A stretch of DNA of 64,000 nt from Candidatus Woesebacteria bacterium RIFCSPHIGHO2_01_FULL_38_10 (GTDB lineage Bacteria > Patescibacteriota > Microgenomatia > UBA8517): assembly GCA_001792215.1 (NCBI GenBank), contig MGGC01000033.1, forward strand, positions 2,527-66,526. The letters are read 5' to 3'. This document shows positions 19,699 through 34,697 of the stretch, piece after piece. Below the pieces are notes generated by a model. That model saw only the letters and a program-made list of their open reading frames with translations, ran no database searches and was not told where the DNA came from. The translations under genes were made by a program, and so were the position numbers. Position 1 is the stretch's first letter; each line of letters opens with the position of its first letter.

Positions 19699-19772
19699 TG
19701 CCCGGTCGGCTAAAGGTAGGCCAGATGGCTCTGGACCATCTAATCCACGTTCGAATCGTGGCTGGGCAGCCA
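19699..19772 (+). tRNA. tRNA-Gln, anticodon CTG, with an encoded CCA end.
   Basis: Manual cloverleaf. Acceptor TGCCCGG/CTGGGCA (U1-A72, one G-T wobble), D stem GGCT/GGCC, anticodon stem GATGG/CCATC with loop CTCTGGA (anticodon CTG), T arm CCACG-TTCGAAT-CGTGG, discriminator G73, then CCA. U1-A72 and G73 are known tRNA-Gln identity features. Confidence 0.85.
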
Positions 19773-21344
19773 AGTAGGACGAGAGGGTCGCAAAGACCCC
19801 TTTTGGGTTGATTTATCGGGCAATTCGTTAGGTTCGAAAATCTTCGCTCCATTTTTTGCCAAATTAGCCACTTTCGAACCGTTAGTCTCAAGCACTGCAT
19901 TGTGTATCAGTTTGAAGGCTTTGGAATACTCGTAAGCCAGAACTCCTTGGGTTAGGGTCATGTTAGTAAATACCAGATTGATAAGTCGTCTTTGTTCTTC
20001 CAAAAGGTGGCATTCTTTGGCTCGCAGGTAGATTTCTTTGGCTCTCTGGGAGAGTTCATAAAGGTTAATCCCCAAATCAAAGTGGTTATTCTTGGCTTTG
20101 GTATGTTTCTCAATCGCTGCCACAATGTCTGCCTTCTCTTGGGTATATTGCCTGAATTTCTGGTCATAAAAGGCTTTGGTGATCTTTTCATCCAGTTTGT
20201 CGTCATACAGGCGGTCTAAGCGCTTCTCAACCTGCGCCAGGCGGATTTGTAGTTCTTTGAGGCTGCTGGTTTCGTATTCAGTGGCATCCTGATGGCTTTC
20301 TTTGAGAGCCTTTTTAAGCCATTCGGCAATATGGCTGTTTTTTAACTGTAGTCCTTCAAAGCCTGTTAATAGCTGGTTCTCAATCACATCCTCTCTTGTC
20401 CATTTCTTCTGGGAGCAGTTGCGGTAGTGATTACAATGTCCATAGATAATGTTCTTGTGAATTTCCCAGGTGACCGTGCCTTTACACTCGGCGCATTTGA
20501 GTAATTGCTTAAAGAGAAACATATGTCTATTTATTTTAGGTGTATTTTTACCAGCCAGCACTAACTGTATCTTATCAAAAATCTCCTGACTTATTAAAGG
20601 CTCATGTTTGCCCTGATAAATCTCTCCGTTCCACCTGATCTTACCGATGTAAAACGGGTCTTTGAGAAGTTGATGGACACGGCTTTTGTAGATTCTGCCT
20701 CCTGTTGACGAGCGAAGTCCCGCCTCAAACATTAAATCAGCCAGTTTTTTGACCGAGCAGTCTCCTTCTGAATACTGTTCAAGGAATCTGCTTATAAGAG
20801 GAGCGGTGATTTCATCCTGGACATGGGTTTTATGTCCACGCTCACCAACGGTTTTATATCCTGGCAGTGGTCGGCAAGGTAACCATCCCTGTGACAGCTT
20901 CTCCTTTTGCCCCTTCTTTACTTCCTCGGATAAGTTATCAATGTAGTTTTTGGCAAAGATAATGCGCACACCCCAATTGAGTTTGTCTTGGGAGCGGGAG
21001 TTTTTGTGGAGGATAAGGGAATCTTTGACCAGATGGACTTGGCGTTCTTCGTCCTCCTCCAGCCATTCGTCGATCATCACCGCATCTTTAAAGTTTCTGG
21101 TTAAGCGGTCAACCTTCTCGCAAATGATAATTTTAATGTTGTTTTTCTTAACATACTCCGTCATGGATGAGAAGATCTCTCGTTGTTTCCTCCCGCTTGC
21201 CGATTCAGAGATGGAGAAGATTTTAGTCACTCCAAAGACCAGCTTCTCGGCGTAGCCCTTGAGTAGCTTCTCCTGGGCTGGCAGTGAGTAGCCTGTTTCT
21301 TCTTGTTCTCGACTTGATACTCGGCAGAGCAGGACAGCTTTCAT
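19740..21344 (-). CDS. Large serine recombinase (integrase).
   Basis: 534 aa. N-terminal resolvase/invertase catalytic domain with the Ser nucleophile (LLCRVSSREQEETGYSLPAQ), a recombinase domain, a zinc ribbon (CAECKGTV...CNHYRNC) and a coiled-coil. Its last 30 nt overlap the 3' half of tRNA-Gln on the opposite strand. Confidence 0.9.
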   Translation of the reverse strand: MKAVLLCRVSSREQEETGYSLPAQEKLLKGYAEKLVFGVTKIFSISESASGRKQREIFSSMTEYVKKNNIKIIICEKVDRLTRNFKDAVMIDEWLEEDEERQVHLVKDSLILHKNSRSQDKLNWGVRIIFAKNYIDNLSEEVKKGQKEKLSQGWLPCRPLPGYKTVGERGHKTHVQDEITAPLISRFLEQYSEGDCSVKKLADLMFEAGLRSSTGGRIYKSRVHQLLKDPFYIGKIRWNGEIYQGKHEPLISQEIFDKIQLVLAGKNTPKINRHMFLFKQLLKCAECKGTVTWEIHKNIIYGHCNHYRNCSQKKWTREDVIENQLLTGFEGLQLKNSHIAEWLKKALKESHQDATEYETSSLKELQIRLAQVEKRLDRLYDDKLDEKITKAFYDQKFRQYTQEKADIVAAIEKHTKAKNNHFDLGINLYELSQRAKEIYLRAKECHLLEEQRRLINLVFTNMTLTQGVLAYEYSKAFKLIHNAVLETNGSKVANLAKNGAKIFEPNELPDKSTQKGSLRPSRPTWLPSHDSNVD

Positions 21345-21390
21345 AGGTTTTTGTTGCTAACACAACACATAAATGAAACTTCAAGTAATA

Positions 21391-21993
21391 TCAACTTGAA
21401 CTATCATCTTTGTTGTCCTCTAACTGTTTTTTATTAAATTCCATTTCTAACTTTGTTATTTCCTTTGACAATTTTTCCTCTTCTGGGGTAAGGGGTTTTT
21501 GCTCTGCTTCGTCAATGCCTCCTACTATCTGATGTTTGCCGATTGATTCTCCAAATTCTGTCCTGTGCATTTCCCATAATGCTTTGACTTCCTGGACAGT
21601 TGCTGGCTCGCCTGCCTGCATTTGCTTTTTTAATGCCTGCAGTTTACTCCAGAATGCTTCCGTGATCAGATATGCTCTTTTCTGCCTGATTTGAGTTGAC
21701 TTCTTTTTCAAGCTCTCCAAGTCTTCTGTTAACTTCTTATCTGCCCGTTTAATCCACTGGTATTTAACCGACCAGCGTTCAATCGTCCTTTCTGAGGGTA
21801 AATTCCCAAGTTTAGTGCCAAAAATCACCGACAACTCTCCTACAGGATTCCGACATATTTGCTGCCATGCTTGGATCAGCTTGGAAACACTTCCTACTTC
21901 GCAATAAAGGAGGAATGCAGTATATTGACTTTCTGTCTCTCCAGGCATCTTTGAAGTTATTAGTTTTTCTGGTTGGTCACTTATTTTGTTCAT
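21391..21993 (-). CDS. Hypothetical protein (200 aa) in the recombinase operon.
   Basis: ORF closely packed with the neighbouring minus-strand genes. No motif recognised. Confidence 0.5.
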   Translation of the reverse strand: MNKISDQPEKLITSKMPGETESQYTAFLLYCEVGSVSKLIQAWQQICRNPVGELSVIFGTKLGNLPSERTIERWSVKYQWIKRADKKLTEDLESLKKKSTQIRQKRAYLITEAFWSKLQALKKQMQAGEPATVQEVKALWEMHRTEFGESIGKHQIVGGIDEAEQKPLTPEEEKLSKEITKLEMEFNKKQLEDNKDDSSS

Positions 21994-22204: not shown

Positions 22205-22560
22205 GGTTGTTTTGTTTTTGAAACTTGTTTATTAAAAATCTTGTCTACTTTCTCCCTAAATTCCTGATACTTTTCTGGCGATACTGGTTCATATGGCGCT
22301 TCGGTTGCTCTTCCTGGAAGTGTCTTAGAATCTTTAAGAAATCTTCTCTCTCGATAAAAATCAGTAATATAAGGAATGGCAATCGTAAATGTTTGAAACA
22401 CAATTGCCCCACGGTCACCCCTTGCCATTGCTTCCTGAACTAACCTGGCTTGATTTTTCGACAGCTGATACTCCCTCTTTGAAACCGTGATAACTGTCCA
22501 AAGCTCCTCAAAATCATCGTCATTTAATGTGCCTGGCGTCAATTCCTCTTTTGCTGACAT
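22201..22560 (-). CDS. Hypothetical protein (119 aa).
   Basis: ORF showing translational coupling (overlapping start/stop). Confidence 0.45.
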   Translation of the reverse strand: MSAKEELTPGTLNDDDFEELWTVITVSKREYQLSKNQARLVQEAMARGDRGAIVFQTFTIAIPYITDFYRERRFLKDSKTLPGRATEAPYEPVSPEKYQEFREKVDKIFNKQVSKTKQP

Positions 22561-23242
22561 GTTCGCTCGCCTCCTTTCTGATCTGTATTGCGTCTCGTTT
22601 TACAAAATTCCATAGGGTTGCCAACCAATTTTTTCGAACCTTACCAGTTGATTCGTGCCAATTCACCATGTCGTCATATTTGCTCATAACAAAGGCAAGC
22701 GAAACCTGATAACGCTGCGCTGTATCCTGGAACTCAGCTTCGCCAAGGCTGGTAATGTCAGAATACTTTCCTTTAAGAGGAACTAAAACTTTCTCTTTAT
22801 TTATTTCTCTTTCAGTATCTGAAGAAATCTCTGAAGTAGTCTCTGGGATAGATTGTTGGTTTTCTTCAAATAAGTTTGTGGAATTTCCACAAACAAGTTT
22901 GCTGATATTCCCCAGATTGAGTTTGAAATGCCGTTTTGCAGGTATACCTTTTCGTTTAACTTCAACGAGTTTTAGATTTTTAATTTTCTGAATTGCCCCA
23001 TCCTGTTCATACCTTGAAAGAGCAGTTTCTTCCTCAATCTCGTCGATAGTTTTATAGATCCACTCTGGGTTTTGACCTTTTCCCCACCAGTATAAAAGTT
23101 GTGATAACAACAATCCTGCCTTTACCGATCCTATTGCTTTTGCTAATAAAGGATTGAAGGCTATGGGTTTGATACTTAGAACTTCCAACAATTTCTTGTT
23201 GTAGTTCGGACTACTGGTTTTATGTGTTTGGTTATTTTCCAT
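22520..23242 (-). CDS. Hypothetical protein with an N-terminal winged-helix region reminiscent of plasmid/phage replication initiator or replisome-organiser proteins.
   Basis: 240 aa. N-terminal segment LLSQLLYWWGKG...IDEIEEETALSRYEQDGAIQKIKNLKLVEV resembles RepA/DnaD-type wHTH domains. This is a weak call by inspection only. Confidence 0.35.
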   Translation of the reverse strand: MENNQTHKTSSPNYNKKLLEVLSIKPIAFNPLLAKAIGSVKAGLLLSQLLYWWGKGQNPEWIYKTIDEIEEETALSRYEQDGAIQKIKNLKLVEVKRKGIPAKRHFKLNLGNISKLVCGNSTNLFEENQQSIPETTSEISSDTEREINKEKVLVPLKGKYSDITSLGEAEFQDTAQRYQVSLAFVMSKYDDMVNWHESTGKVRKNWLATLWNFVKRDAIQIRKEASEHVSKRGIDARHIK

Positions 23243-23411: not shown

Positions 23412-23418
23412 AAGTTTG

Positions 23419-23730: not shown

Positions 23731-23758
23731 AACTCCAGCACACTGCCATTTTTTGCGT

Positions 23759-23892: not shown

Positions 23893-24246
23893 TTGCTGTC
23901 CGAATCCTATTGCTTCACTAATTCCGATTAAAGGCAGATGTGCCTTCTATAAGTAATTCTTACAGAATTTATTCTGATAGTCAAGGGGTAGTGAAAAACC
24001 CTCAAAATTGATAGAATATAAGCATAAAGCCTAAACCCTTTTGGGGCATGGCTAAGAAAACCGATCAAGGTAGGAAGCTCCTCGTCAGAGCACCTTGATC
24101 GGTCATATCCCGAAAGGGGTATGGGTAGTCGAAAGGCTATCGCTGGCGGGGAGCTTTTTGTTTGGATTTGACAATCTCCCCGACACGAAGTTAACATGCA
24201 ACACTCAAGGCTAAATTATCGGTTTATGTCTGAGGGGAGGTGAAAA

Positions 24247-25119
24247 ATGAAAATGACAAATAAAAATAAGTCTAATTTTCTACCTGTTATCCTTATCCTT
24301 GCCATAGTTGCCATTCTTGCTGTAGTTTTAGCCCCTCGCATGGTTAGTCAATCAAAGATTGCTCAGACCTTGCAATCCAGCGCCAAGGACAAAGAAGTTG
24401 CAGAGCTTCTGGCTACGATGAGCAAGAACCCAAATAAGGACTCACAGGAGTATAAAGAAGCTCGCCAGAAGTTTTGCCTTTTGACAGCCAGACCAGTAAA
24501 AGAGCGAGAAAAGGCAATCGCCAACATTCGTGAGTTTCTGGGTATACCTGACATCCCAGTGGAGTTCCTTTGTAGCAGGTTTGCGGGTAAGCCAGATGAC
24601 AGCGAGACTGATTATAATAACCCAACCAGCGAACACTATGAAGCTGCACGCCACGGTTTTGAAGTCGATCCAAAAACCAACTACCTCATTGGAGTTGGAG
24701 ACGCCGAGCGCAGGACAGGAAGAAAAGAGGACGGCACCCGCTGGTCTGAACCACTGCCAGAGTATGATTACTCAGGTCGTTACAGCACACCAGAGGAAGT
24801 TAGAAAGGTCGCTGAGAAGTTTCTAACGGATCACAAGGACATTTTTGGTATTGATCTTACTAAGATGACCTACAAGTATGAAGGCACAAAGCCAGGCAAC
24901 TTCTTCATGCACTGGGAAGACAAAAGTGTCTCGGTAACCAAAGAGCATGAAGTCTGTGGGGATGTAGATCAGAACCGAGAGGGCGCATACCAAGACGCCA
25001 AAGGAGTATGGTGCATTAAGCAGAAGTCGACGAATTATCAAAGGATCGACATCGCTATCACCAACGGCGGGCAGATCATTATCTATCGCAACAACATCAA
25101 CGATCTGGACAAACTCTAA
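24247..25119 (+). CDS. Hypothetical membrane-anchored or secreted protein. GC-richer than the host genes.
   Basis: 290 aa with an N-terminal hydrophobic segment (FLPVILILAIVAILAVVLAP) and no recognisable domain. Confidence 0.55.
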   Translation: MKMTNKNKSNFLPVILILAIVAILAVVLAPRMVSQSKIAQTLQSSAKDKEVAELLATMSKNPNKDSQEYKEARQKFCLLTARPVKEREKAIANIREFLGIPDIPVEFLCSRFAGKPDDSETDYNNPTSEHYEAARHGFEVDPKTNYLIGVGDAERRTGRKEDGTRWSEPLPEYDYSGRYSTPEEVRKVAEKFLTDHKDIFGIDLTKMTYKYEGTKPGNFFMHWEDKSVSVTKEHEVCGDVDQNREGAYQDAKGVWCIKQKSTNYQRIDIAITNGGQIIIYRNNINDLDKL

Positions 25120-25152
25120 AACTGGTTGCTTGGTTTCTGCCAATATAAAAAC

Positions 25153-25296: not shown

Positions 25297-25419
25297 CTCC
25301 CTACAGTCTGCAACAAATGCCCAACGAGGCTTCTGAAGCTAAATACAGGTGAAACTATGCCACCCCAGGCACGAAAGGCTGTTACGAGCCAACACAGGGG
25401 GTTACGATTAAGGCAATTC

Positions 25420-28284
25420 TCATATTCTGTATTTTTGTTGCCGTTTCTTGAAGGCTTCCGATCCACCTTCTAACACCTTAACCGCTCTATTCCGAATCTT
25501 AGGTTCTTCTATTGAACCTGAGATATACGAGATTTTTCCGTTGCTATCTCTATTTGCCAAAATAACCTGTTCTGCATCGCTGTTTATAACAACATTGCCG
25601 TTATTGGATACCAAGATAATCTGTCGATACTTTTTAGCTTCTCTTATAGAACCAATAAGCTCGTCCATAATAAATTCGTTATCCAGATGATCATCGTGTG
25701 AGTCGATAATGATAGGTTTGTCTCCTTCAGCTAAATAAATCTTAATAAGAACCGTAGCTTTTTGCCCCAATGAAAGTTTATTAACGCTCGTATTTTTGTA
25801 TTTAACAACGGGGATAACTGTAAGGTAGCTGTCATATAAGAATTTATAGAAATCACCAACACTTATCACACTTGAAGTTTTTATTTTACCTTTCAAGTCA
25901 TTACTCAAGTGCTCAAGCTCATCAACTAAAACATTCACCTTAGTTTCATCGCCAGCTGCAACTGCCTTATAGAATCCTACCAAACCCTTAAACACCCAAG
26001 TATCCCCATCTTCTGGTCTAACCATAACCTTCCTATTGTCGACTACATCCTCTGCATTTTTTAGTAATTGTTTAGAATTAAAATTAACTTCTGCAACAAA
26101 ATCAAGGTCAGAAAGCACCTGTGCCTTGTCTACAGAAAATAACGAGATAATCTCATCGTATTTTTTCTTCAACTCAAGAAATGCAGTAACCATTTGAGTA
26201 AACAGCTCTTTCCTTTCTTTGATCTCAGATGCAAGCTCTTTCTTCTTTTTCTTTAAGTTTTTATTTTCCTCCTCAGCTTTATTTAGAGCAATTTCCGTTT
26301 CCCTCTTTTTATCAAGTAGTGATGTGTGACTTCGTATTCCTGCTTCGAACTGATCAATATCTTTTTGAGCTTTTCCAATGTTCTCAATTGCCTTATTTAT
26401 CTCTTGCTCGATATAATCTAATTTCTCCTGCAATTTGTCTTTATCTGCGTATGCTAAATCAGGGAAGGATTCTGGGACTTTTAACTTCTTAAGCAATTGA
26501 TTGATTGAAGAAATGTAAGAGTTAAATGTTGGAAACTCTTGGTCAATAAAAGCAATCGCCTGTGTTAATTCCTCCTTTAACTTAATGAGCAGGTCTCTCC
26601 TGTTTTTTAAGTTTGCTATGGCTTCTTGCTTTCCTTTTGCGATTTTAACCTTTTTGCTATTCAGACTTTTCTCAAGTTCTGCAATTCTCTGGTTTATGTC
26701 TTTCAATCCTACCTTGAGCTGTTTTTCTTTAACCTTTGCTTTTTCGACAATTTCTGTTTTTGTCGCTTGCTCTGTTGACTCGATTGACTGTGACTTCTGT
26801 AGAATTTTCTGTTTAAGGTCACCAATCTTTGTCTGGATTTTTGAAAATTCGTATTTTTCTACTGAATTTTGTATCTTTGGACTTTGGAAAATTAAGTCAT
26901 TAACATACTCGTCAAGATCCGATTTCTCTCCAATATACTGTTCTAATTCCCCCTGGGCGATATAAGCAATTTGCCCCTCTTCAAAAAACGATAGGTCTGT
27001 AGCTTTTTTTGAAAATGTTGTCTTATCCTTGAAAGTTAACTCAGTTTTTAAGTCAGGGTTCTGATCCGAAATTCTCTTAATAAAAGAGTTCTCGTCGCCA
27101 GAATTAACTCTATCGATGTAACAGTTAGCAATCTGGTCAACAAAGGCTGTCTTACCAGTCCCTTTTCCTCCTGCTACTGCGACTAAGCCTGGATTAAGAT
27201 TTATATCTGTCTTGGCAATAGACAATTCGTCGTTAATTTTCGACTCTGTAATTTTTATCTGGTCGATTGTTAAATTACTTCTGGGTGGTATTGGGCAACC
27301 TGGTTGGATTGAAACTCTATCTTCTGGTTCATATAAAAGCTGTTTTAATCCTTCAAATGTTGGGTCTGCTTCTACCCAACAAAATCTCAAATCACAGGCA
27401 TCAGTCTTTTCACCACACTTATGTGTAGATACACCCCTTTTTGCACACGGGACTCCCACTTCATCAATGCAATGACTGTCTGATCCGTGTATACAAGATT
27501 TCAGAGTCTTAAACTCCTCTTTAAACTTCTTTTCACCTTCTTTATAGGGTTGTTTTCCAAGACACCACTGTATAGTTTTAGGATTAGAGGAAAAAACCAT
27601 ATCCGATTTCTGAAGAAGTCCTTTTCTCATAAGATGATCTTGACCATTCCAGTCAATCAAATTCGACAGTTCTTCGGGAAGAACAAGAAGATATTTTCCC
27701 TTGAAACGGCTATCTCCACTTAATAGCTCTGTTATTTCTTCATGGCTAACAACCGCATTCGATGCACCCAATTCCAGAGGGTTTCTTCCTTTGAAGAGTG
27801 CATGTTGAGATATAAGTTGTTTTCCTAAAACAGTTAAGTTGGATAGTTTTAATTTGCGACTCTCATCCTTGCTCTGGGGGTTACCTTCGTAATAAAAATG
27901 GAGATCATGTAGGAAATGTTCTTCTATATCTTGAGGAGATACTTCATCAGAAAAAATTACATGGTAATTTAGTCTTCGTGGATCAGTTCCGTCTTTTCTG
28001 CTTGAAATGACGCTGTTTAATCGAAACTCAATGTTCGGCAGAACCAACGAGATGTTTTTCAGTCTTCCTGCTTTTCTAAACTCCAGAATCTTCTTATATC
28101 CTTCTATTGAGAAGTAATCCGTTATTCCTACAGCAGCCAGATCAAGCCCCTCAAGTTTTTTAAGAAACTTATTCCAATCTGGCTCACCATTTGCCAGCTT
28201 AGGATATTTATTAGCGAGTATTGAAAGAGGACTGTGAACATGCAAATCCCACTTTCGCCATTCAGAACCTCTTGGATATTCCAT
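25420..28284 (-). CDS. PHP-domain phosphoesterase fused to an ABC/SMC-like ATPase with long coiled-coils, resembling the single-gene Ppl (PHP-like) anti-phage architecture.
   Basis: 954 aa. N-terminal PHP motifs (WDLHVHSP...AAVGITDY...). Walker A VAVAGGKGTGKTAFVDQ. Extensive coiled-coil. C-terminal ABC signature-like LSLGQK followed by Walker B PIIIDSHDDHLD. Confidence 0.7.
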   Translation of the reverse strand: MEYPRGSEWRKWDLHVHSPLSILANKYPKLANGEPDWNKFLKKLEGLDLAAVGITDYFSIEGYKKILEFRKAGRLKNISLVLPNIEFRLNSVISSRKDGTDPRRLNYHVIFSDEVSPQDIEEHFLHDLHFYYEGNPQSKDESRKLKLSNLTVLGKQLISQHALFKGRNPLELGASNAVVSHEEITELLSGDSRFKGKYLLVLPEELSNLIDWNGQDHLMRKGLLQKSDMVFSSNPKTIQWCLGKQPYKEGEKKFKEEFKTLKSCIHGSDSHCIDEVGVPCAKRGVSTHKCGEKTDACDLRFCWVEADPTFEGLKQLLYEPEDRVSIQPGCPIPPRSNLTIDQIKITESKINDELSIAKTDINLNPGLVAVAGGKGTGKTAFVDQIANCYIDRVNSGDENSFIKRISDQNPDLKTELTFKDKTTFSKKATDLSFFEEGQIAYIAQGELEQYIGEKSDLDEYVNDLIFQSPKIQNSVEKYEFSKIQTKIGDLKQKILQKSQSIESTEQATKTEIVEKAKVKEKQLKVGLKDINQRIAELEKSLNSKKVKIAKGKQEAIANLKNRRDLLIKLKEELTQAIAFIDQEFPTFNSYISSINQLLKKLKVPESFPDLAYADKDKLQEKLDYIEQEINKAIENIGKAQKDIDQFEAGIRSHTSLLDKKRETEIALNKAEEENKNLKKKKKELASEIKERKELFTQMVTAFLELKKKYDEIISLFSVDKAQVLSDLDFVAEVNFNSKQLLKNAEDVVDNRKVMVRPEDGDTWVFKGLVGFYKAVAAGDETKVNVLVDELEHLSNDLKGKIKTSSVISVGDFYKFLYDSYLTVIPVVKYKNTSVNKLSLGQKATVLIKIYLAEGDKPIIIDSHDDHLDNEFIMDELIGSIREAKKYRQIILVSNNGNVVINSDAEQVILANRDSNGKISYISGSIEEPKIRNRAVKVLEGGSEAFKKRQQKYRI

Positions 28285-28286
28285 AT

Positions 28287-30608
28287 TTATTTTTTATCAA
28301 TCTTATAAGCGCTGCTGATGATAGCGTCAAAACTGTTAATTCTGCTTACTGCTGTATGGGGCAGGAGTTTATAAATCCACTGCTTGTTGGTTGCTCCAGA
28401 GGCGATTTTACACCATTCTTCAGCTTGTTTTGCCTTCTCCAAGACCTCTGGGTCTTTTTTGTCGAGTTTACTTTTATCTTTAACCTCCACCAAGTAATTA
28501 GCGTCTTTTCTTTCAACAATAAAATCGGGGTTGTAGTTACCGTAAATATACTTAATCGGTAGTTGCCCGTTCCTAAGTCTCAACCAGCTCACTACAGATT
28601 TATCTCTTTCCAGAGAGTCCGCTAACAGTTTCTCCTGGGTTGAATCAAAAACATAGGCTGGGTAAACACTTTTGTCATATCCCTTGATGATGTTGCCTCT
28701 GGATTCTGCTTCGCTCACTTCGTCTTTATCCAATGGCACAGCCGAGACCTTTACGACTTTCAGATAAGGTTCAAACGGCAACTGCTCATCAAGAACTCCA
28801 AACTTGATTCTTGTTTGTTCTTGGAGCTTCTCCTGAAGCTGAGGCAGAATATCATTTAAGATTGTCTGTTCATGCAGTTTAACCAGTTTCGATAGCTCTT
28901 TTCCTGTTACCTGGAGTTGATCAAGGTAGTGTTTTACGATCTTTTGTAAGATTGCCTTGAAAGAGATGTCAAACTCGGACATCTCCAAGATAATCAACCT
29001 AACGATGCGATTAACAGGATTGATTTCTTCTTTGATCTCGACTTCTCCAGCGTCTTCTGTTTGTCTGGAAACAATGTCTGTCTTAACCATTCTTGGCTTA
29101 ATCTTCTTTAATTCCTCCAAACGCAACTTAATCGGGAAGAACTCCAGTTTATTGCTGGAATAAACTTTCGCTTCGACAGCAGGTATCTTGATCCAAAGTT
29201 TTTTATTACCTGTTGGTTTGATCTCAACAGTCTTTAATTCTTCTTTCTTTTCAGCCTTTTTAACCCCAATCCCCTCAGCCACTTCATGGGCAACCGCTAT
29301 CACTCTGGCAAAGTTGTCATGGGAGATAATGTCGAGCGAGTCAAGTTCCTCAACGCCTGAAAGCTCGCCAAACGGTAGCCTAAGCCCTCTGCCGATAGTT
29401 TGCTCGATCAAAGTCTTACTGATTGAAGCCCTGAAGGGGATAATGGTGTAGACATTTTTGACATCCCAGCCTTCTTTGAGCTTGTCAACATGAACAACAA
29501 TCTCGTTTTTGTTAACTGGATAAGGTTCTTCCAAACGGAGAAGCTGATTGATTGAATCTACCTCGCTCTCGCTGGTTACCAATAGAGTTTTGTCCTTGTA
29601 ATAGCCATCAAAGAAACTGTCGCTTTCGATTAGAGCTTTAACATCTTTGGCGTGCTGAATGTTCTTGGTCGTTAGGAGAGTAACTGGTAAAACAAACGGC
29701 AATTTATTGTTTTTGCAGTATGCCTCGATAAGTGCTTTCTTCTCTCGGTGTCTCCTGATACCATCCTCAAGTTTCACTAACTCAAGGTCACCTTTGTAGG
29801 TGTAGTCATCACTTCTGGCTATAACATACGGAATCTTGATATAACCACCCTTAGCGCCATTGCCGTTGTGTAAGCTCGCCAAAGCCTTCTTAGAATCGTT
29901 TATGGCGTCTCCAAGGGTGTAAGAATAAACCACATTGTCGCTAATGGGTGTTGCCGTAAATTCCAGTCCCAACTCTGGTTTGAGATGGTTGATCGCTTTG
30001 ATCGACTTTACTCCCCGATACCTGTGACTCTCGTCCATTAAAATAACCAGATCCTTTTGCTGGAGAAGCTCGGCAAAGCTCGACCCCAGTGTTTCTTGAT
30101 AGCGGTGGAATCTAAACTCGACATCGGTTCTTTCGTTGAAAATCTTCTGGATATTAAAAACATAAATGTTAACCGCATCAAAAAGCTGATTGCCAAAGTT
30201 AGCATAGGTGTAATTTTCTCCTGTAATCAAATTAAACATTGGGAAATCAGTCAAACCATCCAGGACATATTTTTTGCTTGAAGGGGTAAAGTTATCGATA
30301 GTTTTGGTATAAATGGTTTCTCCTGGAGTTAGAATGAAAAAGTCTTTTAGCCCCTTCGTGTAGTAAAGATAAGCGATCATGGCTGCCATCAGTCTTGTTT
30401 TCCCCACACCTGTTGCCAGAGCAAAAGTAAAGGAAGGAAACTCTGTATCAAACTTCACATTTCCCACCAACCTCGCCTCAATATCTTCCAATTTGTCCCT
30501 GTCTAACTTAACCCCAGAAAGGATTGCGTCTAATTTGATCAATGAAAGCTCTTGTGGCTTTCTCAGGCTTAATTCTTTGGTTAATTTTTCTGTTATGTTC
30601 ATGCTCAT
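28287..30608 (-). CDS. res: Type III restriction enzyme, Res subunit (SF2 helicase-like ATPase plus C-terminal PD-ExK endonuclease).
   Basis: 773 aa. Walker A ALATGVGKTRLMAAM, DEAH-like MDESHRY, C-terminal D...LVEVKDK nuclease motif. Translationally coupled to the Mod gene. Confidence 0.85.
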   Translation of the reverse strand: MSMNITEKLTKELSLRKPQELSLIKLDAILSGVKLDRDKLEDIEARLVGNVKFDTEFPSFTFALATGVGKTRLMAAMIAYLYYTKGLKDFFILTPGETIYTKTIDNFTPSSKKYVLDGLTDFPMFNLITGENYTYANFGNQLFDAVNIYVFNIQKIFNERTDVEFRFHRYQETLGSSFAELLQQKDLVILMDESHRYRGVKSIKAINHLKPELGLEFTATPISDNVVYSYTLGDAINDSKKALASLHNGNGAKGGYIKIPYVIARSDDYTYKGDLELVKLEDGIRRHREKKALIEAYCKNNKLPFVLPVTLLTTKNIQHAKDVKALIESDSFFDGYYKDKTLLVTSESEVDSINQLLRLEEPYPVNKNEIVVHVDKLKEGWDVKNVYTIIPFRASISKTLIEQTIGRGLRLPFGELSGVEELDSLDIISHDNFARVIAVAHEVAEGIGVKKAEKKEELKTVEIKPTGNKKLWIKIPAVEAKVYSSNKLEFFPIKLRLEELKKIKPRMVKTDIVSRQTEDAGEVEIKEEINPVNRIVRLIILEMSEFDISFKAILQKIVKHYLDQLQVTGKELSKLVKLHEQTILNDILPQLQEKLQEQTRIKFGVLDEQLPFEPYLKVVKVSAVPLDKDEVSEAESRGNIIKGYDKSVYPAYVFDSTQEKLLADSLERDKSVVSWLRLRNGQLPIKYIYGNYNPDFIVERKDANYLVEVKDKSKLDKKDPEVLEKAKQAEEWCKIASGATNKQWIYKLLPHTAVSRINSFDAIISSAYKIDKK

Positions 30609-32272
30609 ACTTTGAATTTCTTGAGTAAAACATCAGGAATTTTCCTGATTTCTACATTTTCTGGTAATTTAATTTTACTCGATATGGTTTTGGCATAAAC
30701 GATCAGATAATCGGCTGCATCGCCAACTTCTCGCAAGATAGCACTTACATAATCTTGGTTGAGATATTGCTCGGTTACATGAGCGATAGTCCTTCCTGAA
30801 ACGCCGTGTAGGGCATTATTTGGATTAAGGAGTTTGAATCCTTCGACCTTCAAAACTGCCCGAATAAGAGTGCCGTTATATACTTTTGGATTTAGAACTG
30901 TCAATCTCAAGTCGTCATCTGCTACAAAAAGACTGTCCCCCAATTCAAAATACTTAAATCCACTCCCGCCCCTCCAATTTATTTCCTTACTGATTCCAGT
31001 CTGATCCTTACCCTCGACAACCTCTTTTAATCGCTTTAAGCAGTGCGTTTTAACTTGATCGCTAAACTCAACCATGATCCACTTTCTTCCCATCTTGTGT
31101 GCAACTGCCCCTGTAGTTCCCGAACCCGCAAAACTGTCAAGAATCCAATCGCTCTCTTTTGATCCTATCTCTAAGATTCTCTTTATCAACTTTTCAGGTT
31201 TCTTGCCCTTGGGAAATTCCACATTCCCTTCTTTTGCTATTCCTTGCCAACCGATGTCGTCCCAGAAGTTCGTTAGAGGTTCAACAATGCCCTTCTCGCC
31301 ATTTACTGTCCTAACTTTATCCTCTAAAAAGAGGATTCTATTTCCTTTATAGAAAAACATATCACTAAAATCTTCTCGTTTAAGTAAGTAGACTTTTTCA
31401 CCATCACTTTTTGATTTATCGATAAGTTCTCTTGCTGCCTGACTCACTCCCTTATAGTTTGGTAGTGCAAAACGGATCACCCCTTCTGGATTACCCACCG
31501 CAAACTTAACAACCTCTTTTTCAAATACTTTACTGGACAGTTTTTTCCTTGCCTCTGATGCAGAAGAGTATCCCAGCTCAGTTGCAACTTTATCCGCTAA
31601 ATTGATAAATCGCCATTTTTGATAATCCTCTGAGTAGTTCTCGATGAACTTGCTGTATTGCCTATCATATTTTTCTCTTAACACATGTTGTTGTTTGTAA
31701 CGCCATTCAGTTTTGTCTTTGCAGTAAACGATGAGATATTCGGTCACATTTACAGGAGCTGGGTTTATTGCCTTATGTCCTGTAGCAGCACTCCTTTTTA
31801 TGCTTATATTAACTACACGATTCTTACGACCAAATATCTCATCAAGGAGAACGCTCAAATAGGCAACCTCCGTATCATCAATTTCAACAAAAATTACTCC
31901 ATCTTTTTTTAATAAGTCGTGAAGAAGTTTTAGTCTGTCCCTCATCATCGTGAGCCAGATAGAATGCTCTAAGCCATCATCGTAGTATTCAAACGCAGAA
32001 CCAGTATTGAATGGAGGATCAATATAAATCAGCTTAATTTTGTTTCTAAAATCTTGCAGCAATGCCTTAAGCGCTAATAGATTATCGCCCTTTATGAGCA
32101 TGTTTTCAGCATCTCTATCACCGTAAGCTGCCTTTTCGAGAAATATACGAGGTTCAGATACTCTGGGGTCTTTTTTGTCTACCCAAAGATATTTTTTCTC
32201 TTTGAGATCATAGTAAAGACTTTTGTCTTTGTGATACCAGGTTAATTCTAATTTTTTATCGTTTTTAGTCAT
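30605..32272 (-). CDS. mod: Type III restriction-modification Mod subunit (N6-adenine DNA methyltransferase, beta-class motif order).
   Basis: 555 aa. Motif IV IYIDPPFNTG precedes motif I DSFAGSGTTGAVA. Overlaps the Res start by 4 nt. Confidence 0.85.
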   Translation of the reverse strand: MTKNDKKLELTWYHKDKSLYYDLKEKKYLWVDKKDPRVSEPRIFLEKAAYGDRDAENMLIKGDNLLALKALLQDFRNKIKLIYIDPPFNTGSAFEYYDDGLEHSIWLTMMRDRLKLLHDLLKKDGVIFVEIDDTEVAYLSVLLDEIFGRKNRVVNISIKRSAATGHKAINPAPVNVTEYLIVYCKDKTEWRYKQQHVLREKYDRQYSKFIENYSEDYQKWRFINLADKVATELGYSSASEARKKLSSKVFEKEVVKFAVGNPEGVIRFALPNYKGVSQAARELIDKSKSDGEKVYLLKREDFSDMFFYKGNRILFLEDKVRTVNGEKGIVEPLTNFWDDIGWQGIAKEGNVEFPKGKKPEKLIKRILEIGSKESDWILDSFAGSGTTGAVAHKMGRKWIMVEFSDQVKTHCLKRLKEVVEGKDQTGISKEINWRGGSGFKYFELGDSLFVADDDLRLTVLNPKVYNGTLIRAVLKVEGFKLLNPNNALHGVSGRTIAHVTEQYLNQDYVSAILREVGDAADYLIVYAKTISSKIKLPENVEIRKIPDVLLKKFKV

Positions 32273-32274
32273 AT

Positions 32275-32937
32275 TTATAAATTCTCTGCTAAGAATCTCT
32301 GCACGCCTTCAAGCATAGCCTTAACATCTTCTGTTTTGTAATCCTCAAACTTACCATGATCAGCGCTGTCTCTTATTGCCTTCCACGCCTGAATTTGTTT
32401 TTGAAGCAAGCGACTATAAACTTCTTTATCTGCGAGCTTTGTATTGAGTGATCCTATGTCATCGCCCGATTTGACATCGACAGTATGTTTCTGTGCAATT
32501 TGTCTCAGTCCATTTTCTAATACTGCTCCCACCAAAGAAGCAGCAGAGTCTTTGTAGCTGTTATCCAAGAGATGCTGAGCCATTTCGATAAAATCTGTGA
32601 AGATTTCAGCGCTTACTAAGTTTCTTACTCTTGTTAAATAACCAAGTTCCAAATCTTCTTTTAATGCCGTGAGGATGCCAATACCGTGGTCTACATCGCT
32701 TGGGTGGGCTGTTTTTACCCCGTCAACAAAGTTTTTGTAGTAAGGGCTGTCTTCTCCACAAACCATAGATATAAAGTTTTGTGAGTTATTCTTCCATTCG
32801 TGAAATAGAGGGCTATTGACCGTGGAGGGTGCAATAACATGCTCCGAACTGTTATTTCTTTTTGTTGCTGCGACTTTTTGCCCTTTTTCGAGCAGTTGTC
32901 CAACCCGCTCAATTAGCTTATTTGTTGTTGTGTTCAT
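32275..32937 (-). CDS. Hypothetical protein with an Rx4H motif in a predicted helical C-terminal region, a possible HEPN-like (DUF4145-type) partner of the R-M genes.
   Basis: 220 aa. AIRDSADHGKF matches the HEPN Rx4-6H signature. Sits between the HTH gene and Mod. Call made by motif inspection only. Confidence 0.4.
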   Translation of the reverse strand: MNTTTNKLIERVGQLLEKGQKVAATKRNNSSEHVIAPSTVNSPLFHEWKNNSQNFISMVCGEDSPYYKNFVDGVKTAHPSDVDHGIGILTALKEDLELGYLTRVRNLVSAEIFTDFIEMAQHLLDNSYKDSAASLVGAVLENGLRQIAQKHTVDVKSGDDIGSLNTKLADKEVYSRLLQKQIQAWKAIRDSADHGKFEDYKTEDVKAMLEGVQRFLAENL

Positions 32938-33125
32938 ATTTTTATTTTCATTAGCTTTTCTAAATCTCCAGGTCTGTATCTTCGATCTCCTCGCTTGTTG
33001 AGTCTTATAGCCTTCAGTTTACCGCTTTTATCCCATCGTCTAAGTGTCTCCACATGCACATTTAACACCTCAGCAGCTTGTTTAATGGTTAGTAGTTTTG
33101 GTAACTCGTCTTTATTCTTCGGCAT
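32934..33125 (-). CDS. Excisionase-family / MerR-like helix-turn-helix DNA-binding protein (copy 1), first gene of the defence operon.
   Basis: 63 aa. LTIKQAAEVLNVHVETLRRWDKSGKLKAIR is the classic Xis/AlpA-type HTH. Overlaps the next gene by 4 nt. Confidence 0.75.
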   Translation of the reverse strand: MPKNKDELPKLLTIKQAAEVLNVHVETLRRWDKSGKLKAIRLNKRGDRRYRPGDLEKLMKIKI

Positions 33126-33173: not shown

Positions 33174-34097
33174 TTGATGCGTAAAGTCGTCCCTCCGAAA
33201 CTCGTATGGAAGTATATCGGTGATGAGAGTTCTGAAAAGCGGAAGGAGTCGGAGGAGAGGGTAAGACAGGTTTATGATCGTATTTTTACGGCAGCAAGGG
33301 AGAATATGCGGCAGCGGAAGCATCAAGAAATTGGTAAAATTAAAGGGTCTAATATGAAGATGAAAAATAAGTTTGCTGTAGTTACGGGTTCATCTACTGG
33401 CATCGGTCAGGCTATTGCCATTGAGTTAGCCAAAAAAGGTGCTTTTATTGCTCTGGCTGGTCGCACGCAGGACAAGCTACTAAAAACAAAGAGTTTAATT
33501 ACTGAGAATGGTGGACAGGCAGAAGTATTTTTAGGGGATTTTACCAAGTTGGATTCGCTGGAAGCTCTTATTGCCTTAATTAAGCAAAAAACAGATAAAG
33601 TAGATGTCTTGGTGAATGTGGCTGGTATTTGGCATGGCGAGGATGAGGTTTATGCAGGTAAGGATTTTGAGTCTTTTCCTAAGCAAGTTATTCTTGACAC
33701 TTACGCAGTTGGCTTAACTGCGCCAACACTTCTTGCTCATGCTTTTATCCCCCTTATGCCAAAAGGAGGAAGGATTATCAATATCTCTGGAACATTTGAA
33801 AACGGAGCAAAAGGCTGGTTACCGTATTTTGTCTCCAAGAAGGGTATCGAAGATTTAACCATTGGACTTGCCGAGGAATTGAAGGATAAAGGAATACTGG
33901 TAAACGCCATTTCTCCTTCTGACACGGCTACTGATGCTTATAAAAAGTATTTTCCTCAGTATATTGGAGAAGTAATTGATCCGAAGGAGATTGGTAAATA
34001 TGCGGTATATTTGTGTTCAGAAGAAGCAAACGATATTACTGGCAAGGTTTTTGTCCTGAAAAAAGGCAAAGAACCCTATGAAGGTTATCACACTTAA
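33174..34097 (+). CDS. Short-chain dehydrogenase/reductase (SDR).
   Basis: Rossmann motif AVVTGSSTGIGQAIA and a catalytic YxxxK region (YFVSKKGIEDL). The true start is probably the internal Met near 33355 (MKMKNKFAVVTG); the listed N-terminal extension is doubtful. Confidence 0.8.
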   Translation: MMRKVVPPKLVWKYIGDESSEKRKESEERVRQVYDRIFTAARENMRQRKHQEIGKIKGSNMKMKNKFAVVTGSSTGIGQAIAIELAKKGAFIALAGRTQDKLLKTKSLITENGGQAEVFLGDFTKLDSLEALIALIKQKTDKVDVLVNVAGIWHGEDEVYAGKDFESFPKQVILDTYAVGLTAPTLLAHAFIPLMPKGGRIINISGTFENGAKGWLPYFVSKKGIEDLTIGLAEELKDKGILVNAISPSDTATDAYKKYFPQYIGEVIDPKEIGKYAVYLCSEEANDITGKVFVLKKGKEPYEGYHT

Positions 34098-34695: not shown

Positions 34696-34697
34696 AA

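What the first reader, a model, noticed from the sequence alone, without database searches (positions are those of the whole stretch)
19699..21344. tRNA-Gln(CTG) with its 3' half overlapped by the C-terminus of a large serine recombinase
A well-folding tRNA-Gln (U1-A72, G73, encoded CCA) lies on the plus strand at 19699-19772. A 534-aa serine recombinase on the minus strand stops at 19740, so its last 10 codons are encoded over tRNA positions about 45-76. Integrase-tRNA abutment is the hallmark of an integrated element. It is classic for tyrosine integrases and much rarer for serine integrases, so the overlapping C-terminal tail may have been created by the integration junction. Downstream are small phage/plasmid-like genes and the defence loci. 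I found no obvious direct repeat of the tRNA 3' end downstream.
Basis: partly seen in the sequence, partly recalled or inferred. Interest (0 to 1): 0.6.

Follow-up and report, generated by a model that had tools for sequence, protein, structure and literature searches.

The report
Serine integrase split by tRNA integration
The tRNA-Gln/recombinase overlap is the left junction of an integrated mobile element: its large serine integrase carries its own attachment site inside the last codons of its gene, so insertion at the tRNA's acceptor end replaces the enzyme's natural 32-residue tail with a few codons read backwards off the tRNA, a habit shared by a very large integrase family in Patescibacteria (CPR) bacteria.

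Summary
Observation confirmed. tRNA-Gln(CTG) lies at 19699-19772 (+). A 534-aa large serine recombinase (LSR, 19740-21344, -) ends 33 nt inside it.

In 60 of 69 complete homologous loci the ORF runs antisense into a tRNA 3' end: Asn, Gln, Leu or Asp, including 11 intron-split tRNA-Asn genes.

Four related elements are identical up to ...CGTCCTACTTG-GCTG and diverge at tRNA position 70. attL and attR share only a 4-bp core (tRNA 71-74). Dyad symmetry puts the crossover at positions 71-72.

The conserved native tail (W-D/N-D-F-R...QQLL) lies orphaned upstream on the integrase strand. In the window it is at 35220-35315, behind a Gln-type GCTG core. That implies a ~15.5-kb element carrying a replication initiator, a TerS-like gene, LOOT RNA, type III R-M and a Ppl-like gene.

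The predicted attP 26-mer, and the contiguity of integrase C-terminus with tail, both occur in other genomes.

No empty site, circular form or full-length Gln-type gene was found. The distal boundary, the tandem history and any regulatory role of the tail swap are inferred.

The closest analogue is the archaeal SSV-type 'suicidal' tyrosine integrase.

The parts
19699..19772 (+). tRNA-Gln(CTG). Positions 1-70 are host-derived, 71-72 (19767-19768, CA) is the inferred crossover dinucleotide, and G73-C74-C75-A76 (19769-19772) are inferred to be supplied by the element.
   Evidence: ARAGORN, Rfam, cloverleaf fold, identity break after GCTG in four elements, dyad centre
19767..19770 (.). attL 4-bp core CAGC (GCTG on the integrase strand) = tRNA positions 71-74
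   Evidence: attL and attR share only this core, with zero extra identity on either side. The 4th base tracks the target tRNA: C in Asn-type sites, G here.
19740..21344 (-). Large serine integrase, prophage form, 534 aa. Residues 1-526 are native; the last 8 codons (PSHDSNVD, 19743-19766) plus the stop are antisense tRNA.
   Evidence: Pfam PF00239/PF07508/PF13408, >2600 homologs, AF2 model of a homolog and Foldseek hits to solved LSR-att complexes
19773..19815 (.). P' half-site inside the integrase 3' codons (GSLRPSRPT). On the tRNA strand it forms a hairpin GGGTCGCAAAGACCC followed by CTTTTGG (19785-19809), i.e. a replacement terminator-like trailer for the tRNA.
   Evidence: Terminator scan. 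Family-wide, P' hairpins average -13.2 vs -5.9 kcal/mol for background, p=5e-19.
21391..21993 (-). TerS-like (small terminase-like) protein, 200 aa
   Evidence: phrog_6299, E=5e-12
22520..23242 (-). Replication initiator (O-like / DnaD-like), 240 aa. It is flanked by small ORFs 21977-22204, 22201-22560, 23232-23411 and the DUF5659 ORF 23419-23730.
   Evidence: phrog_9773 E=2.5e-26, phrog_6493 E=1e-13; DUF5659
24024..24145 (+). LOOT RNA (Rfam RF03000), antisense to the integrase; a recurrent component of the core module
   Evidence: Rfam 86.9 bits, gathering score 46.4. Own covariance model: 21 hits in 85 sources, all antisense to and 1.5-4 kb upstream of the integrase.
24247..25119 (+). 290-aa ORF of unknown function in the core module (also present in L109)
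   Evidence: ORF list; no Pfam/PHROG/PADLOC hit; called gene in all population contigs
25300..25410 (.). ~110-nt conserved non-coding block marking the boundary between the core module and the variable cargo; function unknown
   Evidence: 84-97% identical in 13 loci, always 30-60 nt after variable defence/cargo genes. No covariation, no Rfam hit.
25420..33125 (-). Cargo operon: Ppl-like ATPase (25420-28284), type III restriction enzyme (28287-30608), type III methyltransferase (30605-32272), HEPN protein (32275-32937), HTH_17/MerR-like 63-aa protein (32934-33125; possible regulator or excision factor)
   Evidence: Pfam, PADLOC REase_III 1e-87, MTase_III 8e-129, Ppl 2e-24, ORFs, gene tables
33174..35183 (+). 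Further cargo on the opposite strand: SDR (33174-34097), metallo-beta-lactamase fold (34078-34695), 161-aa ORF (34698-35183)
   Evidence: Pfam
35217..35319 (-). Detached native C-terminal tail of the integrase (P arm): core GCTG 35319-35316, then DKWNDFRSANWLDILEFPETTLKSTQQLLAVT (35315-35220) and stop 35219-35217. Inferred attR of the ~15.55-kb element.
   Evidence: Tail HMM E=2e-9 on the integrase strand. Gln-type core. Integrase C-terminus is contiguous with this tail in P0121/P0122/P0127. The predicted attP 26-mer is exact in L108.
35320..36221 (-). Probable remnant of an older element: a P'-like half-site (35320-35345, codes *RPVLL), a Ppl N-terminal fragment (35564-36031) and a second HTH_17 gene (36024-36221)
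   Evidence: Sequence, PADLOC Ppl N-term E=9e-9, Pfam HTH_17. No detectable integrase homology upstream of RPVLL.

Best explanation
The overlap is attL of an integrated element whose large serine integrase carries attP inside its own reading frame.

Free form (inferred). The gene encodes 558 aa: the LSR body, a disordered linker ending ...SRPTWL, then a small helical tail DKWNDF...QQLLAVT. The attP core GCTG is the last base of the Trp codon plus the Leu codon.

Integration. The enzyme recombines this core with CAGC, positions 71-74 of tRNA-Gln. The 2-bp exchange is most probably at C71-A72.

Consequences, as seen in the sequence:
(i) The tRNA keeps its host body (positions 1-70) and receives G73, CCA and a hairpin+T trailer from the integrase 3' codons.
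(ii) The integrase loses its 32-aa tail and reads on through antisense tRNA for 8 codons (PSHDSNVD) to the first stop.
(iii) The tail-coding P arm ends up ~15.5 kb away, at 35.3 kb.

The element carries a replication initiator, a TerS-like gene, LOOT RNA, and a cargo of type III R-M, a Ppl-like ATPase and other genes.

At 35.3 kb the tail abuts a P'-like half-site rather than host DNA. This suggests the element landed on the attL of an older element that has since decayed (tandem accretion).

Status of the steps. Shown by comparison: the junction position, the 4-bp core, the family-wide pattern, and the existence and cognate nature of the tail. Inferred: the exact crossover dinucleotide, the 35.3-kb boundary, the tandem history, and any function of the tail swap.
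For: Window anatomy.

Junction. Four Gln-clade elements in different hosts are identical through CGTCCTACTTGGCTG and diverge at tRNA position 70. L113 and L114 are 100% identical over the 79 nt before that point.

Family survey. Of 69 complete loci, 47 overlap an ARAGORN tRNA (Asn 37, Gln 8, Leu 1, Asp 1), 11 overlap a group-I-intron-split tRNA-Asn, and 2 a T-arm-like remnant.

Detached tails. The tail HMM finds fragments on the integrase strand 2-10 kb upstream of the integrase, E from 1e-14 to 1e-4. The site motif GCT[CG]-N6-TGG.A..A.TT. occurs 24 times on the integrase strand and 3 times on the other.

Core. attL/attR identity is exactly the 4-bp core in most loci, including the window. The L073 attL/attR and L042 intact attP triplet agrees. 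The core sequence tracks the target tRNA: GCTC for Asn, GCTG for Gln, GTGC for Leu, GCGG for Asp.

Crossover. Dyad symmetry of 13 attP sites peaks at the last two core bases: 102/182 complementary, against at most 68 for other centres and a null maximum of 77.

Window tail. HMM E=2e-9. P0121, P0122 and P0127 show the window-clade C-terminus contiguous with DKWNDF.... The predicted attP 26-mer is found exactly in L108.

Boundary. L111 shows the order tail - cargo - RrnaAD - block. Variable cargo precedes the block in 10 loci.

tRNA repair. P' hairpin statistics and CCA supplied at 32 of 54 attL junctions.

Enzyme. The AF2 model puts the core codons at the junction between a disordered linker and a 3-helix tail. 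LSR fold confirmed.
Against: - No empty attB and no excised or circular attP form of this element was found. Every population contig long enough is occupied.
- No full-length Gln-type integrase carrying the DKWNDF tail was found. The contiguous versions are stumps of 67-75 aa, and L108 has only ~25 nt of integrase sequence before the core.
- The left flank of the 35.3-kb site is P'-like, not host-like, so it is not a simple attR. BLAST finds no further integrase remnant there.
- Close relatives L113-L116 have no WDDF-type tail within the fetched DNA.
- The crossover dinucleotide rests on symmetry and covariation, not on biochemistry.
- The family is almost absent from the viral contig collection.
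Confidence: 0.8

Rival explanations
1. The element is only ~5.6 kb (19.77-25.41 kb) and its P arm is the conserved ~110-nt block. Under this reading the type III R-M/Ppl region and the 35.3-kb tail belong to one or two separate, older islands stacked at the same tRNA.
For: The block, the LOOT RNA and the integrase are the only DNA shared with L001, and in L001 the block abuts what looked like a host ksgA gene. The block lies 3-5.4 kb upstream of the integrase in 12 loci, and the sequences beyond it are unrelated between loci. The 35.3-kb site has a P'-like left flank, as expected of another element's own attP.
Against: The edge of the block carries no consistent GCTC/GCTG core; the window has TCGTA there. 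It is more conserved than the integrases, and across both Asn- and Gln-targeting clades. In every locus it follows variable defence or cargo genes on the integrase strand. L111/L112 show the order tail - 7 kb cargo - RrnaAD - block, so L001's 'ksgA' is cargo. Elements delimited by orphan tails are mostly 5-10 kb or more.
Confidence: 0.13
2. The junction is real but is a fossil. The element is fixed and immobile in this lineage, and the tRNA-tailed integrase is an inactive or domesticated relic, so the overlap has no present function.
For: All 21+ contigs carrying the flanking genes have the same occupied arrangement, with no empty site or circle. The neighbouring older element is clearly decayed. 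Only stumps of the attP-spanning gene form were found for the Gln clade.
Against: The 534-aa ORF is intact, with all invariant family residues. Near-identical integrases (90-98% aa) sit at different tRNA-Gln genes in different hosts, which implies recent mobility. The detached tail retains an open frame and the conserved residues.
Confidence: 0.25
3. tRNA-Gln is itself part of the mobile element (an element-borne tRNA), and the overlap is simply compact gene packing, not a recombination junction.
For: Phages and islands often carry tRNA genes. blastn extended the window/L001 match across the whole tRNA.
Against: The tRNA bodies of window, L001, L113 and L114 differ at many positions with compensatory stem changes, while the adjoining element DNA is 93-100% identical right up to position 71. 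The tRNA-side flanks are syntenic host genes such as Lon and YkuD. Homolog clades sit at chromosomal tRNA-Asn genes, some containing group I introns.
Confidence: 0.02

Closest known systems
Large serine integrases of temperate phages and ICEs (PhiC31, Bxb1, Listeria A118/LI, TP901-1, SPbeta)
   Same: Same domain order: resolvase catalytic domain, recombinase domain, and a zinc ribbon with a coiled-coil insertion. Foldseek E from 1e-21 to 1e-13 to solved integrase-att complexes. Minimal attB/attP identity (4 bp here) around a 2-bp crossover, with dyad-symmetric attP half-sites.
   Different: - The target is the acceptor end of a tRNA gene. In the surveys read, serine integrases insert within protein-coding genes while tRNA sites are used by tyrosine integrases (PMC5357655).
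- attP lies inside the integrase ORF, so integration swaps the C-terminus.
- P' doubles as a CCA plus terminator-like trailer for the tRNA.
- No recognised RDF is present.
- Sequence identity to characterised LSRs is only 13-19%.
SSV-type 'suicidal' tyrosine integrases of archaeal viruses and plasmids (SSV1, pTN3, pT26-2)
   Same: [quoted passage not shown]
   Different: - Different enzyme superfamily: tyrosine versus serine.
- Archaea versus CPR bacteria. The review states that self-disrupting recombinases are found exclusively in Archaea (PMC8371274).
- SSV integration yields two inactive pseudogenes. Here only a ~32-aa tail after a disordered linker is detached, and all catalytic and DNA-binding domains stay in one ORF.
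- The identity core is 4 bp rather than tens of bp.
Tyrosine-integrase genomic islands and prophages at tRNA 3' ends (P4-like, Islander/TIGER-type islands)
   Same: Integration at the 3' part of a tRNA gene, with the element restoring the displaced 3' end; tandem accretion at one tRNA.
   Different: Those elements leave direct repeats of typically 15 bp or more of the tRNA 3' segment. Here no such repeat exists and only 4 bp are shared. The enzyme family also differs.
Integration-dependent immunity of mycobacteriophages (attP inside the repressor gene; from my own knowledge, not checked here)
   Same: The concept that integration changes the C-terminus of an element protein and thereby its activity or stability.
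   Different: There the affected gene is the repressor and the recombinase is a tyrosine integrase. Here the integrase itself is affected, and a regulatory effect is only hypothesised.
Phage satellites / integrative plasmids (PICI-like layout)
   Same: Integrase at one end beside a replication initiator and a TerS-like gene, no virion structural genes, a defence-gene cargo, and a size of 5-16 kb. Relatives carry a GpA-type large-terminase ATPase.
   Different: No helper phage, induction or packaging evidence. The element has a serine rather than tyrosine integrase, carries LOOT RNA, and has a CPR host.

Membership tests
Large serine recombinase (serine integrase) | N-terminal resolvase-type catalytic domain with the nucleophilic serine | tested here: met
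   PF00239 E=2.8e-18, residues 4-153. R8-V9-S10-S11 are nearly invariant across 27 and 34 homologs.
Large serine recombinase (serine integrase) | Recombinase domain followed by a zinc ribbon with an inserted coiled coil | tested here: met
   PF07508 E=5e-14. PF13408 scores 21.3 bits, below its 25.3 cut-off, but the four Cys (C284, C287, C304, C310) are invariant. The AF2 model of homolog P0108 shows beta ribbons 282-304 and 455-469 flanking helices 337-441.
Large serine recombinase (serine integrase) | Structural similarity to solved LSRs | tested here: met
   Foldseek with the homolog model: 9y66/9dxd/9dxh E~1e-19 to 1e-21, Bxb1 9iu2 4e-16, PhiC31 9rah 2e-14, LI 4kis 2e-13. Sequence-only search of the PDB is weak (TP901-1 N-terminal domain, E=1e-3).
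Large serine recombinase (serine integrase) | Short att sites with minimal attB/attP identity around a non-palindromic 2-bp crossover; imperfect dyad in attP | tested here: met
   4-bp shared core. The dyad peaks at TC/TG, which is non-palindromic. This is comparative evidence; strand exchange itself was not observed.
Large serine recombinase (serine integrase) | Catalyses unidirectional attP x attB recombination; excision needs an RDF | not testable with these tools
   Needs biochemistry. No RDF was recognised; the HTH_17 proteins at 32934-33125 and 36024-36221 are only candidates.
SSV-type suicidal integrase | Tyrosine recombinase catalytic fold | tested here: not met
   The protein is a serine recombinase.
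SSV-type suicidal integrase | attP within the integrase ORF, so the gene is partitioned on integration into a tRNA gene | tested here: met
   This is a functional resemblance only, not membership.
SSV-type suicidal integrase | Partition inactivates the enzyme (two pseudogenes) | tested here: inconclusive
   Only the ~32-aa tail after a disordered linker is removed. The activity of the truncated form is unknown.
tRNA-targeting tyrosine-integrase island | Direct repeat of the tRNA 3' segment (roughly 15 bp or more) at the far end of the island | tested here: not met
   No repeat found; only 4 bp shared.
LOOT RNA (Rfam RF03000) | Match to the covariance model above the gathering score | tested here: met
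   86.9 bits vs 46.4, full length. Also found in L025 and L037, and 21 loci with my own model.
Phage satellite (PICI-like) | Integrase + replication module + packaging-redirecting gene(s), no structural genes, helper-dependent induction | tested here: inconclusive
   The gene layout fits. Helper dependence is not testable. Only 2 weak family members occur in IMG/VR.

The most novel reading that the evidence does not exclude
The tail swap is a built-in directionality switch. Under this reading the free element makes a full-length integrase whose tethered 3-helix tail is needed for, or licenses, attP x attB integration. The prophage can only make a tail-less, tRNA-tailed enzyme with different activity: either excision-competent without a separate RDF, or locked until an intact copy arrives. 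This would be a bacterial, serine-recombinase counterpart of archaeal 'suicidal' integrases, operating across thousands of CPR genomes. It would also offer tRNA-targeting LSRs with a 4-bp core that might be retargeted through the core and the tRNA half-site.
Probability: 0.25. Interest if true: 0.85.

Novelty: new variant of a known kind. Interest (0 to 1): 0.68.

Why it matters
1. Self-splitting integrase genes have been described as exclusive to Archaea and to tyrosine recombinases (PMC8371274). Here a very large bacterial serine-integrase family (>2600 homologs in one search) shows a milder version of the same design. That makes the question of why attP would sit inside the integrase gene testable in a second, unrelated enzyme family.

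2. It gives the site rules for an abundant class of mobile elements in Patescibacteria, whose mobilome is poorly known. The rules are: tRNA-Asn/Gln/Leu/Asp acceptor end, a 4-bp core at positions 71-74, and tandem stacking. These elements move defence systems (type III R-M, Ppl-like, type I/II R-M) and metabolic cargo.

3. It gives a genomic context to LOOT RNA, an orphan Rfam family, as a core component of these elements.

4. Serine integrases are major genome-engineering tools. A clade whose attB is a conserved tRNA end, with a core that co-varies with the target, is a natural starting point for retargetable integrases.

5. For annotation: the 'conserved' C-terminal xDSNLQP motifs in these proteins are antisense tRNA, not protein features.

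Tried and rejected
1. I first placed the distal end at 25377, because a 67-bp block is shared with L001 next to 'ksgA', and I proposed a crossover at AG. I rejected this. The block is ~110 nt, conserved across clades, lacks an att core, and always follows variable cargo. L111 shows tail - cargo - RrnaAD - block.

2. Block as a structured RNA: RNAalifold gives -8.6 kcal/mol with zero compensatory pairs and there is no Rfam hit. Left unexplained.

3. I thought the 50-aa ORF 35415-35567 was an integrase C-terminal remnant. BLAST does not support this, so I withdrew it.

4. Search for an empty site or circular form through exact-protein contig look-ups of the flanking exonuclease, the Ppl-like gene and the 155-aa ORF: every informative contig is occupied. 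L106 looked rearranged but is collinear.

5. The metagenome scan for the predicted attP found L108. It is a linear chromosomal fragment with a half-site stump, not a free element.

6. Viral-contig scans for the family (2 weak loci) and for the Gln-type site motif (none).

7. Terminal-overlap test for circular contigs on 16 whole-contig loci, including the intact-tail L040: none.

8. Close relatives P0005/P0006 were fetched to obtain a clean Gln-type attR. No WDDF tail lies within reach, but they did fix the attL boundary.

9. Rfam scan of the ORF-poor 18.45-19.72 kb spacer: nothing credible.

10. Literature: no paper found on serine integrases at tRNA genes in CPR, or on attP inside a serine integrase ORF. 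LOOT is not discussed in the main text of its discovery paper and no supplements are held.
Full report
**1. The observation**

ARAGORN finds tRNA-Gln(CTG) at 19699-19772 on the plus strand. Rfam's tRNA model scores 51.9 bits, and the sequence folds as a perfect cloverleaf with U1-A72, G73 and CCA.

A 534-aa ORF on the minus strand (19740-21344) carries Resolvase, Recombinase and zinc-ribbon domains. Its last codons read ...R-P-T-W-L-P-S-H-D-S-N-V-D-stop:
- W (TGG) is the reverse complement of CCA.
- L (CTG) is the reverse complement of C71-A72-G73.
- D-S-N (GAT-TCG-AAC) is the T-loop read backwards.

There is no repeat of the tRNA 3' end elsewhere in the window.

The window comes from a Candidatus Woesebacteria genome (Patescibacteria/CPR) from groundwater; P0001 is 100% identical.

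**2. The tail follows the tRNA, not the protein**

The integrase has more than 2600 homologs. Among the best 120, about 90 end either in antisense-tRNA peptides (...RPxWL-P-R-E-DSNLQP...) or within 2-3 codons after W-L/L-L. Fourteen carry a different, protein-like tail, W-D-D-F-R-T-L-K-W...Q-L-L-Q.

Close relatives (79-98% identical) diverge exactly after W-L.

At the DNA level, four related elements in different hosts (window, L001, L113, L114) are identical through ...CGTCCTACTTGGCTG and differ from the next base on. That base is tRNA position 70. Their tRNA-Gln bodies, three CTG and one TTG anticodon, differ with compensatory stem changes, so they are host genes.

**3. Family survey**

One scan of species-representative genomes returned 80 loci across Patescibacteria, with 45-97% amino-acid identity. 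Among the 69 complete genes:

| Class | Loci |
|---|---|
| ORF runs 13-63 nt antisense into an ARAGORN-called tRNA (Asn-GTT 37, Gln 8, Leu-CAG 1, Asp-GTC 1) | 47 |
| ORF runs into a tRNA-Asn 3' half preceded by the group I intron S element (Rfam Intron_gpI confirmed in all four loci tested) | 11 |
| T-arm-like remnant | 2 |
| Intact W-D-D-F tail | 3 |
| Other tails | 6 |

So 60 of 69 are fused to a tRNA end. The clade that is at least 80% identical to the window integrase is always at tRNA-Gln.

**4. The missing tail is at the other end**

An HMM built from the 14 protein-like tails was searched against six-frame translations of all loci. It finds short orphan fragments on the same strand as the integrase, 2-10 kb upstream of it, in many tRNA-fused loci (E from 1e-14 to 1e-4).

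All share one DNA architecture: [flank]-GCTC-N6-TGG-GAY-GAY-TTY. This motif occurs 24 times on the integrase strand and 3 times on the other.

In simple cases the flank is a hairpin followed by a T-run, which is what a host tRNA terminator looks like.

L073 (attL and attR) together with the intact gene of L042 (attP) form a clean triplet.

In most loci, attL and attR share exactly four bases and nothing more on either side. Those bases are GCTC, the reverse complement of tRNA-Asn G71-A72-G73 plus the next base.

The core changes with the target: GCTG for Gln, GTGC for Leu, GCGG for Asp.

Across 13 reconstructed or intact attP sites, dyad symmetry is maximal when the centre is the last two core bases. 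That gives 102 of 182 positions complementary, against 68 or fewer for any other centre and a shuffled maximum of 77. This places the 2-bp crossover at tRNA positions 71-72, which are non-palindromic (GA or CA), and it explains the covariation.

**5. What integration does**

On the tRNA side, everything 3' of position 72 comes from the element: the discriminator, a true CCA in 32 of 54 junctions, and a hairpin. That hairpin is far more stable than other antisense windows of the same genes, with a mean of -13.2 versus -5.9 kcal/mol (p=5e-19). In the window it is GGGTCGCAAAGACCC followed by CTTTTGG, at 19785-19809.

Native host trailers, read from the attR flanks, encode CCA in only about 4 of 14 cases (sequences). 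The window's own tRNA-Glu is followed by ACC-C, not CCA.

On the integrase side, an AlphaFold model of an intact homolog (P0108, mean pLDDT 80.7) shows this order:
- the canonical LSR domains;
- a disordered linker, residues 489-515;
- a three-helix module, residues 517-551, pLDDT about 72-76.

The core codons sit at the junction between linker and module, so integration removes a discrete mini-domain and nothing else.

Foldseek confirms the LSR fold against solved integrase-att complexes, Bxb1, PhiC31 and the Listeria LSR.

**6. The window element**

The tail HMM hits the window once on the integrase strand, at 35330-35220 (E=2e-9). The sequence there is CGT-CCA-GTC-TTG-CTG-GAC-AAA-TGG-AAC-GAT-TTT..., which translates as RPVLL-DKWNDFRSANWLDILEFPETTLKSTQQLLAVT-stop. 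It has the Gln-type core GCTG at 35319-35316. attL and this site share only GCTG.

Joining the two halves predicts an attP of CGTCCTACTTG-GCTG-GACAAATGGAA and a 558-aa native protein. Two independent checks support the pairing:
- (a) Short ORFs from other genomes (P0121, P0122, P0127) have the window-clade C-terminus ...KIFEP.(K/E)LPDKSTQK.SLRPSRP.WL directly continuous with DKWNDF...QQLLAV. Others (P0129-P0135) are the same tail behind unrelated flanks.
- (b) The predicted 26-mer occurs exactly once in the metagenome collection, in L108, with a tail 90% identical to the window's.

The element is therefore best delimited as 19767-35317, about 15.55 kb. Its contents, starting from the tRNA:
- the integrase;
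- a TerS-like gene (phrog_6299, 5e-12);
- small ORFs;
- a replication initiator (phrog_9773, 2.5e-26);
- a DUF5659 ORF;
- LOOT RNA on the opposite strand;
- a 290-aa ORF;
- a ~110-nt conserved block;
- cargo: a Ppl-like ATPase, type III restriction enzyme and methyltransferase, a HEPN protein, an HTH_17 protein, an SDR, an MBL-fold protein and a 161-aa ORF.

Relatives L113-L116 carry a GpA-type terminase ATPase beside the integrase.

The layout is that of an integrative plasmid or a phage satellite. The family is nearly absent from the viral contig collection.

**7. Caveats on the distal end**

I first took the block at 25.3-25.4 kb for the element's end. I withdrew that for three reasons:
- It lacks an att core.
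- It is conserved at 84-97% across Asn- and Gln-targeting clades.
- In all ten further block-bearing survey loci examined it follows variable defence or cargo genes.

In addition, L111 shows the order tail - cargo - RrnaAD - block. The block's function is unknown: it shows no covariation and has no Rfam match.

The 35.3-kb site is also not a simple attR. Its left flank resembles an integrase P' half-site (inner CGTCC, codes RPVLL) for about 25 nt, after which no integrase homology is detectable. L108 looks the same.

In L047 and L065 the orphan tail is fused to the end of a second, different or decayed LSR gene.

The simplest reading is tandem accretion. A newcomer recombines with the attL of a resident element, where the tRNA half-site and core are intact. 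The resident integrase gene, now fused to the newcomer's tail, then decays.

The Ppl N-terminal fragment and the second HTH_17 gene at 35.5-36.2 kb fit such a gutted older element. This history is inferred.

No empty site or excised circle was found. Every population contig that reaches the junctions is occupied, and none of 16 whole-contig loci is circular.

**8. Comparison with what is known**

The protein is a member of the large serine integrases (see the membership table).

What differs from characterised members:
- The target is a tRNA acceptor end. In the streptococcal surveys I read, tRNA sites belong to tyrosine integrases while serine integrases disrupt protein-coding genes (PMC5357655).
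- attP is placed inside the integrase ORF.

The closest functional analogue is the archaeal SSV-type 'suicidal' tyrosine integrase, which also carries att within its gene and targets tRNAs (PMC7253208). A 2021 review states that such self-disrupting recombinases are found exclusively in Archaea (PMC8371274).

Here the enzyme family, the domain of life, the length of identity (4 bp) and the severity of the split (only a tethered tail is lost) all differ. It works like an SSV-type integrase in one respect but is not a member of that family.

I found no paper describing this arrangement in the searchable library. That library is incomplete, so prior description elsewhere cannot be excluded.

**9. 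Verdict**

- I rate it a new variant of a known kind: a serine integrase element with an in-ORF attP and a tRNA target.
- Confidence is high for the junction and the family-wide mechanism of tail replacement. It is moderate for the 35.3-kb boundary. It is low for any regulatory role of the tail swap.

Noticed in passing
window 24024-24145 (+); also L011 6206-6326, L014, L019, L013, L020-L022, L025, L026, L032, L037, L040, L056-L058, L062, L065, L072, L082, L087: LOOT RNA (Rfam RF03000, an orphan sRNA family) is a recurrent component of these integrase elements. There are 21 covariance-model hits in 85 sources, every one antisense to the integrase and 1.5-4 kb upstream of it, in Gln-type, Asn-type and intact-tail loci. 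This suggests an element function such as replication or copy control.
   Followed up: partly
L025 11622-11829, L037 11621-11817, L044 11624-11924, L073 11609-11828 (and about 7 more loci): tRNA-Asn(GUU) genes of many Patescibacteria are interrupted by a group I intron in the anticodon loop (Rfam Intron_gpI 55-77 bits), which is why ARAGORN misses them. The integrase elements still use their 3' ends.
   Followed up: partly
window 25300-25410; L011 3237-3340; L111 9131-9197; 10 further loci: A ~110-nt non-coding block is conserved at 84-97% across elements whose integrases are only 52-62% identical. It always lies just downstream of variable cargo genes. It shows no RNA covariation, has no Rfam match and has no att core. 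It could be an origin, a pac site or an insulator.
   Followed up: partly
window 35320-36221: A Ppl-like N-terminal (PHP) fragment of 155 aa and a second HTH_17 gene sit beside the detached tail. They look like the remains of an older element gutted by deletion. Only about one half-site length of integrase-like sequence is retained, as in the unrelated contig L108. This may reflect selection to keep a functional attR.
   Followed up: partly
L024 994 and 3054: Two orphan tails lie 2 kb apart, each preceded by a nearly identical hairpin flank (AAGCCCAATAAAC[A/T]GGGCTTTC...). This may be a small integrase-less element mobilised in trans.
   Followed up: no
window 5264-5338: The host tRNA-Glu(CTC) is followed by ACC-C rather than an encoded CCA. 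So this genome does not consistently encode CCA, whereas the element-repaired tRNA-Gln has one.
   Followed up: partly
window 18473-19698: A 1.2-kb stretch between the RNase H-like exonuclease gene and tRNA-Gln has no convincing ORF and no Rfam match. Two sigma-70-like promoter matches lie just upstream of the tRNA (19639-19699).
   Followed up: partly
L035 (contig labelled Candidatus Methanodesulfokora), L019 and L045 (labelled archaeal), many TPA contigs labelled Gammaproteobacteria/Pseudomonadales: Family members appear on contigs whose record titles name archaea or proteobacteria, but the gene content looks like Patescibacteria. This is probably mis-binning or mislabelled MAGs rather than true host range.
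   Followed up: no
L113 4220-5767; L114 7847-9394: Close relatives of the window element carry a 515-aa GpA-type large-terminase ATPase next to the TerS-like gene and the integrase. This points to DNA packaging and a phage or satellite lifestyle for part of the family.
   Followed up: no
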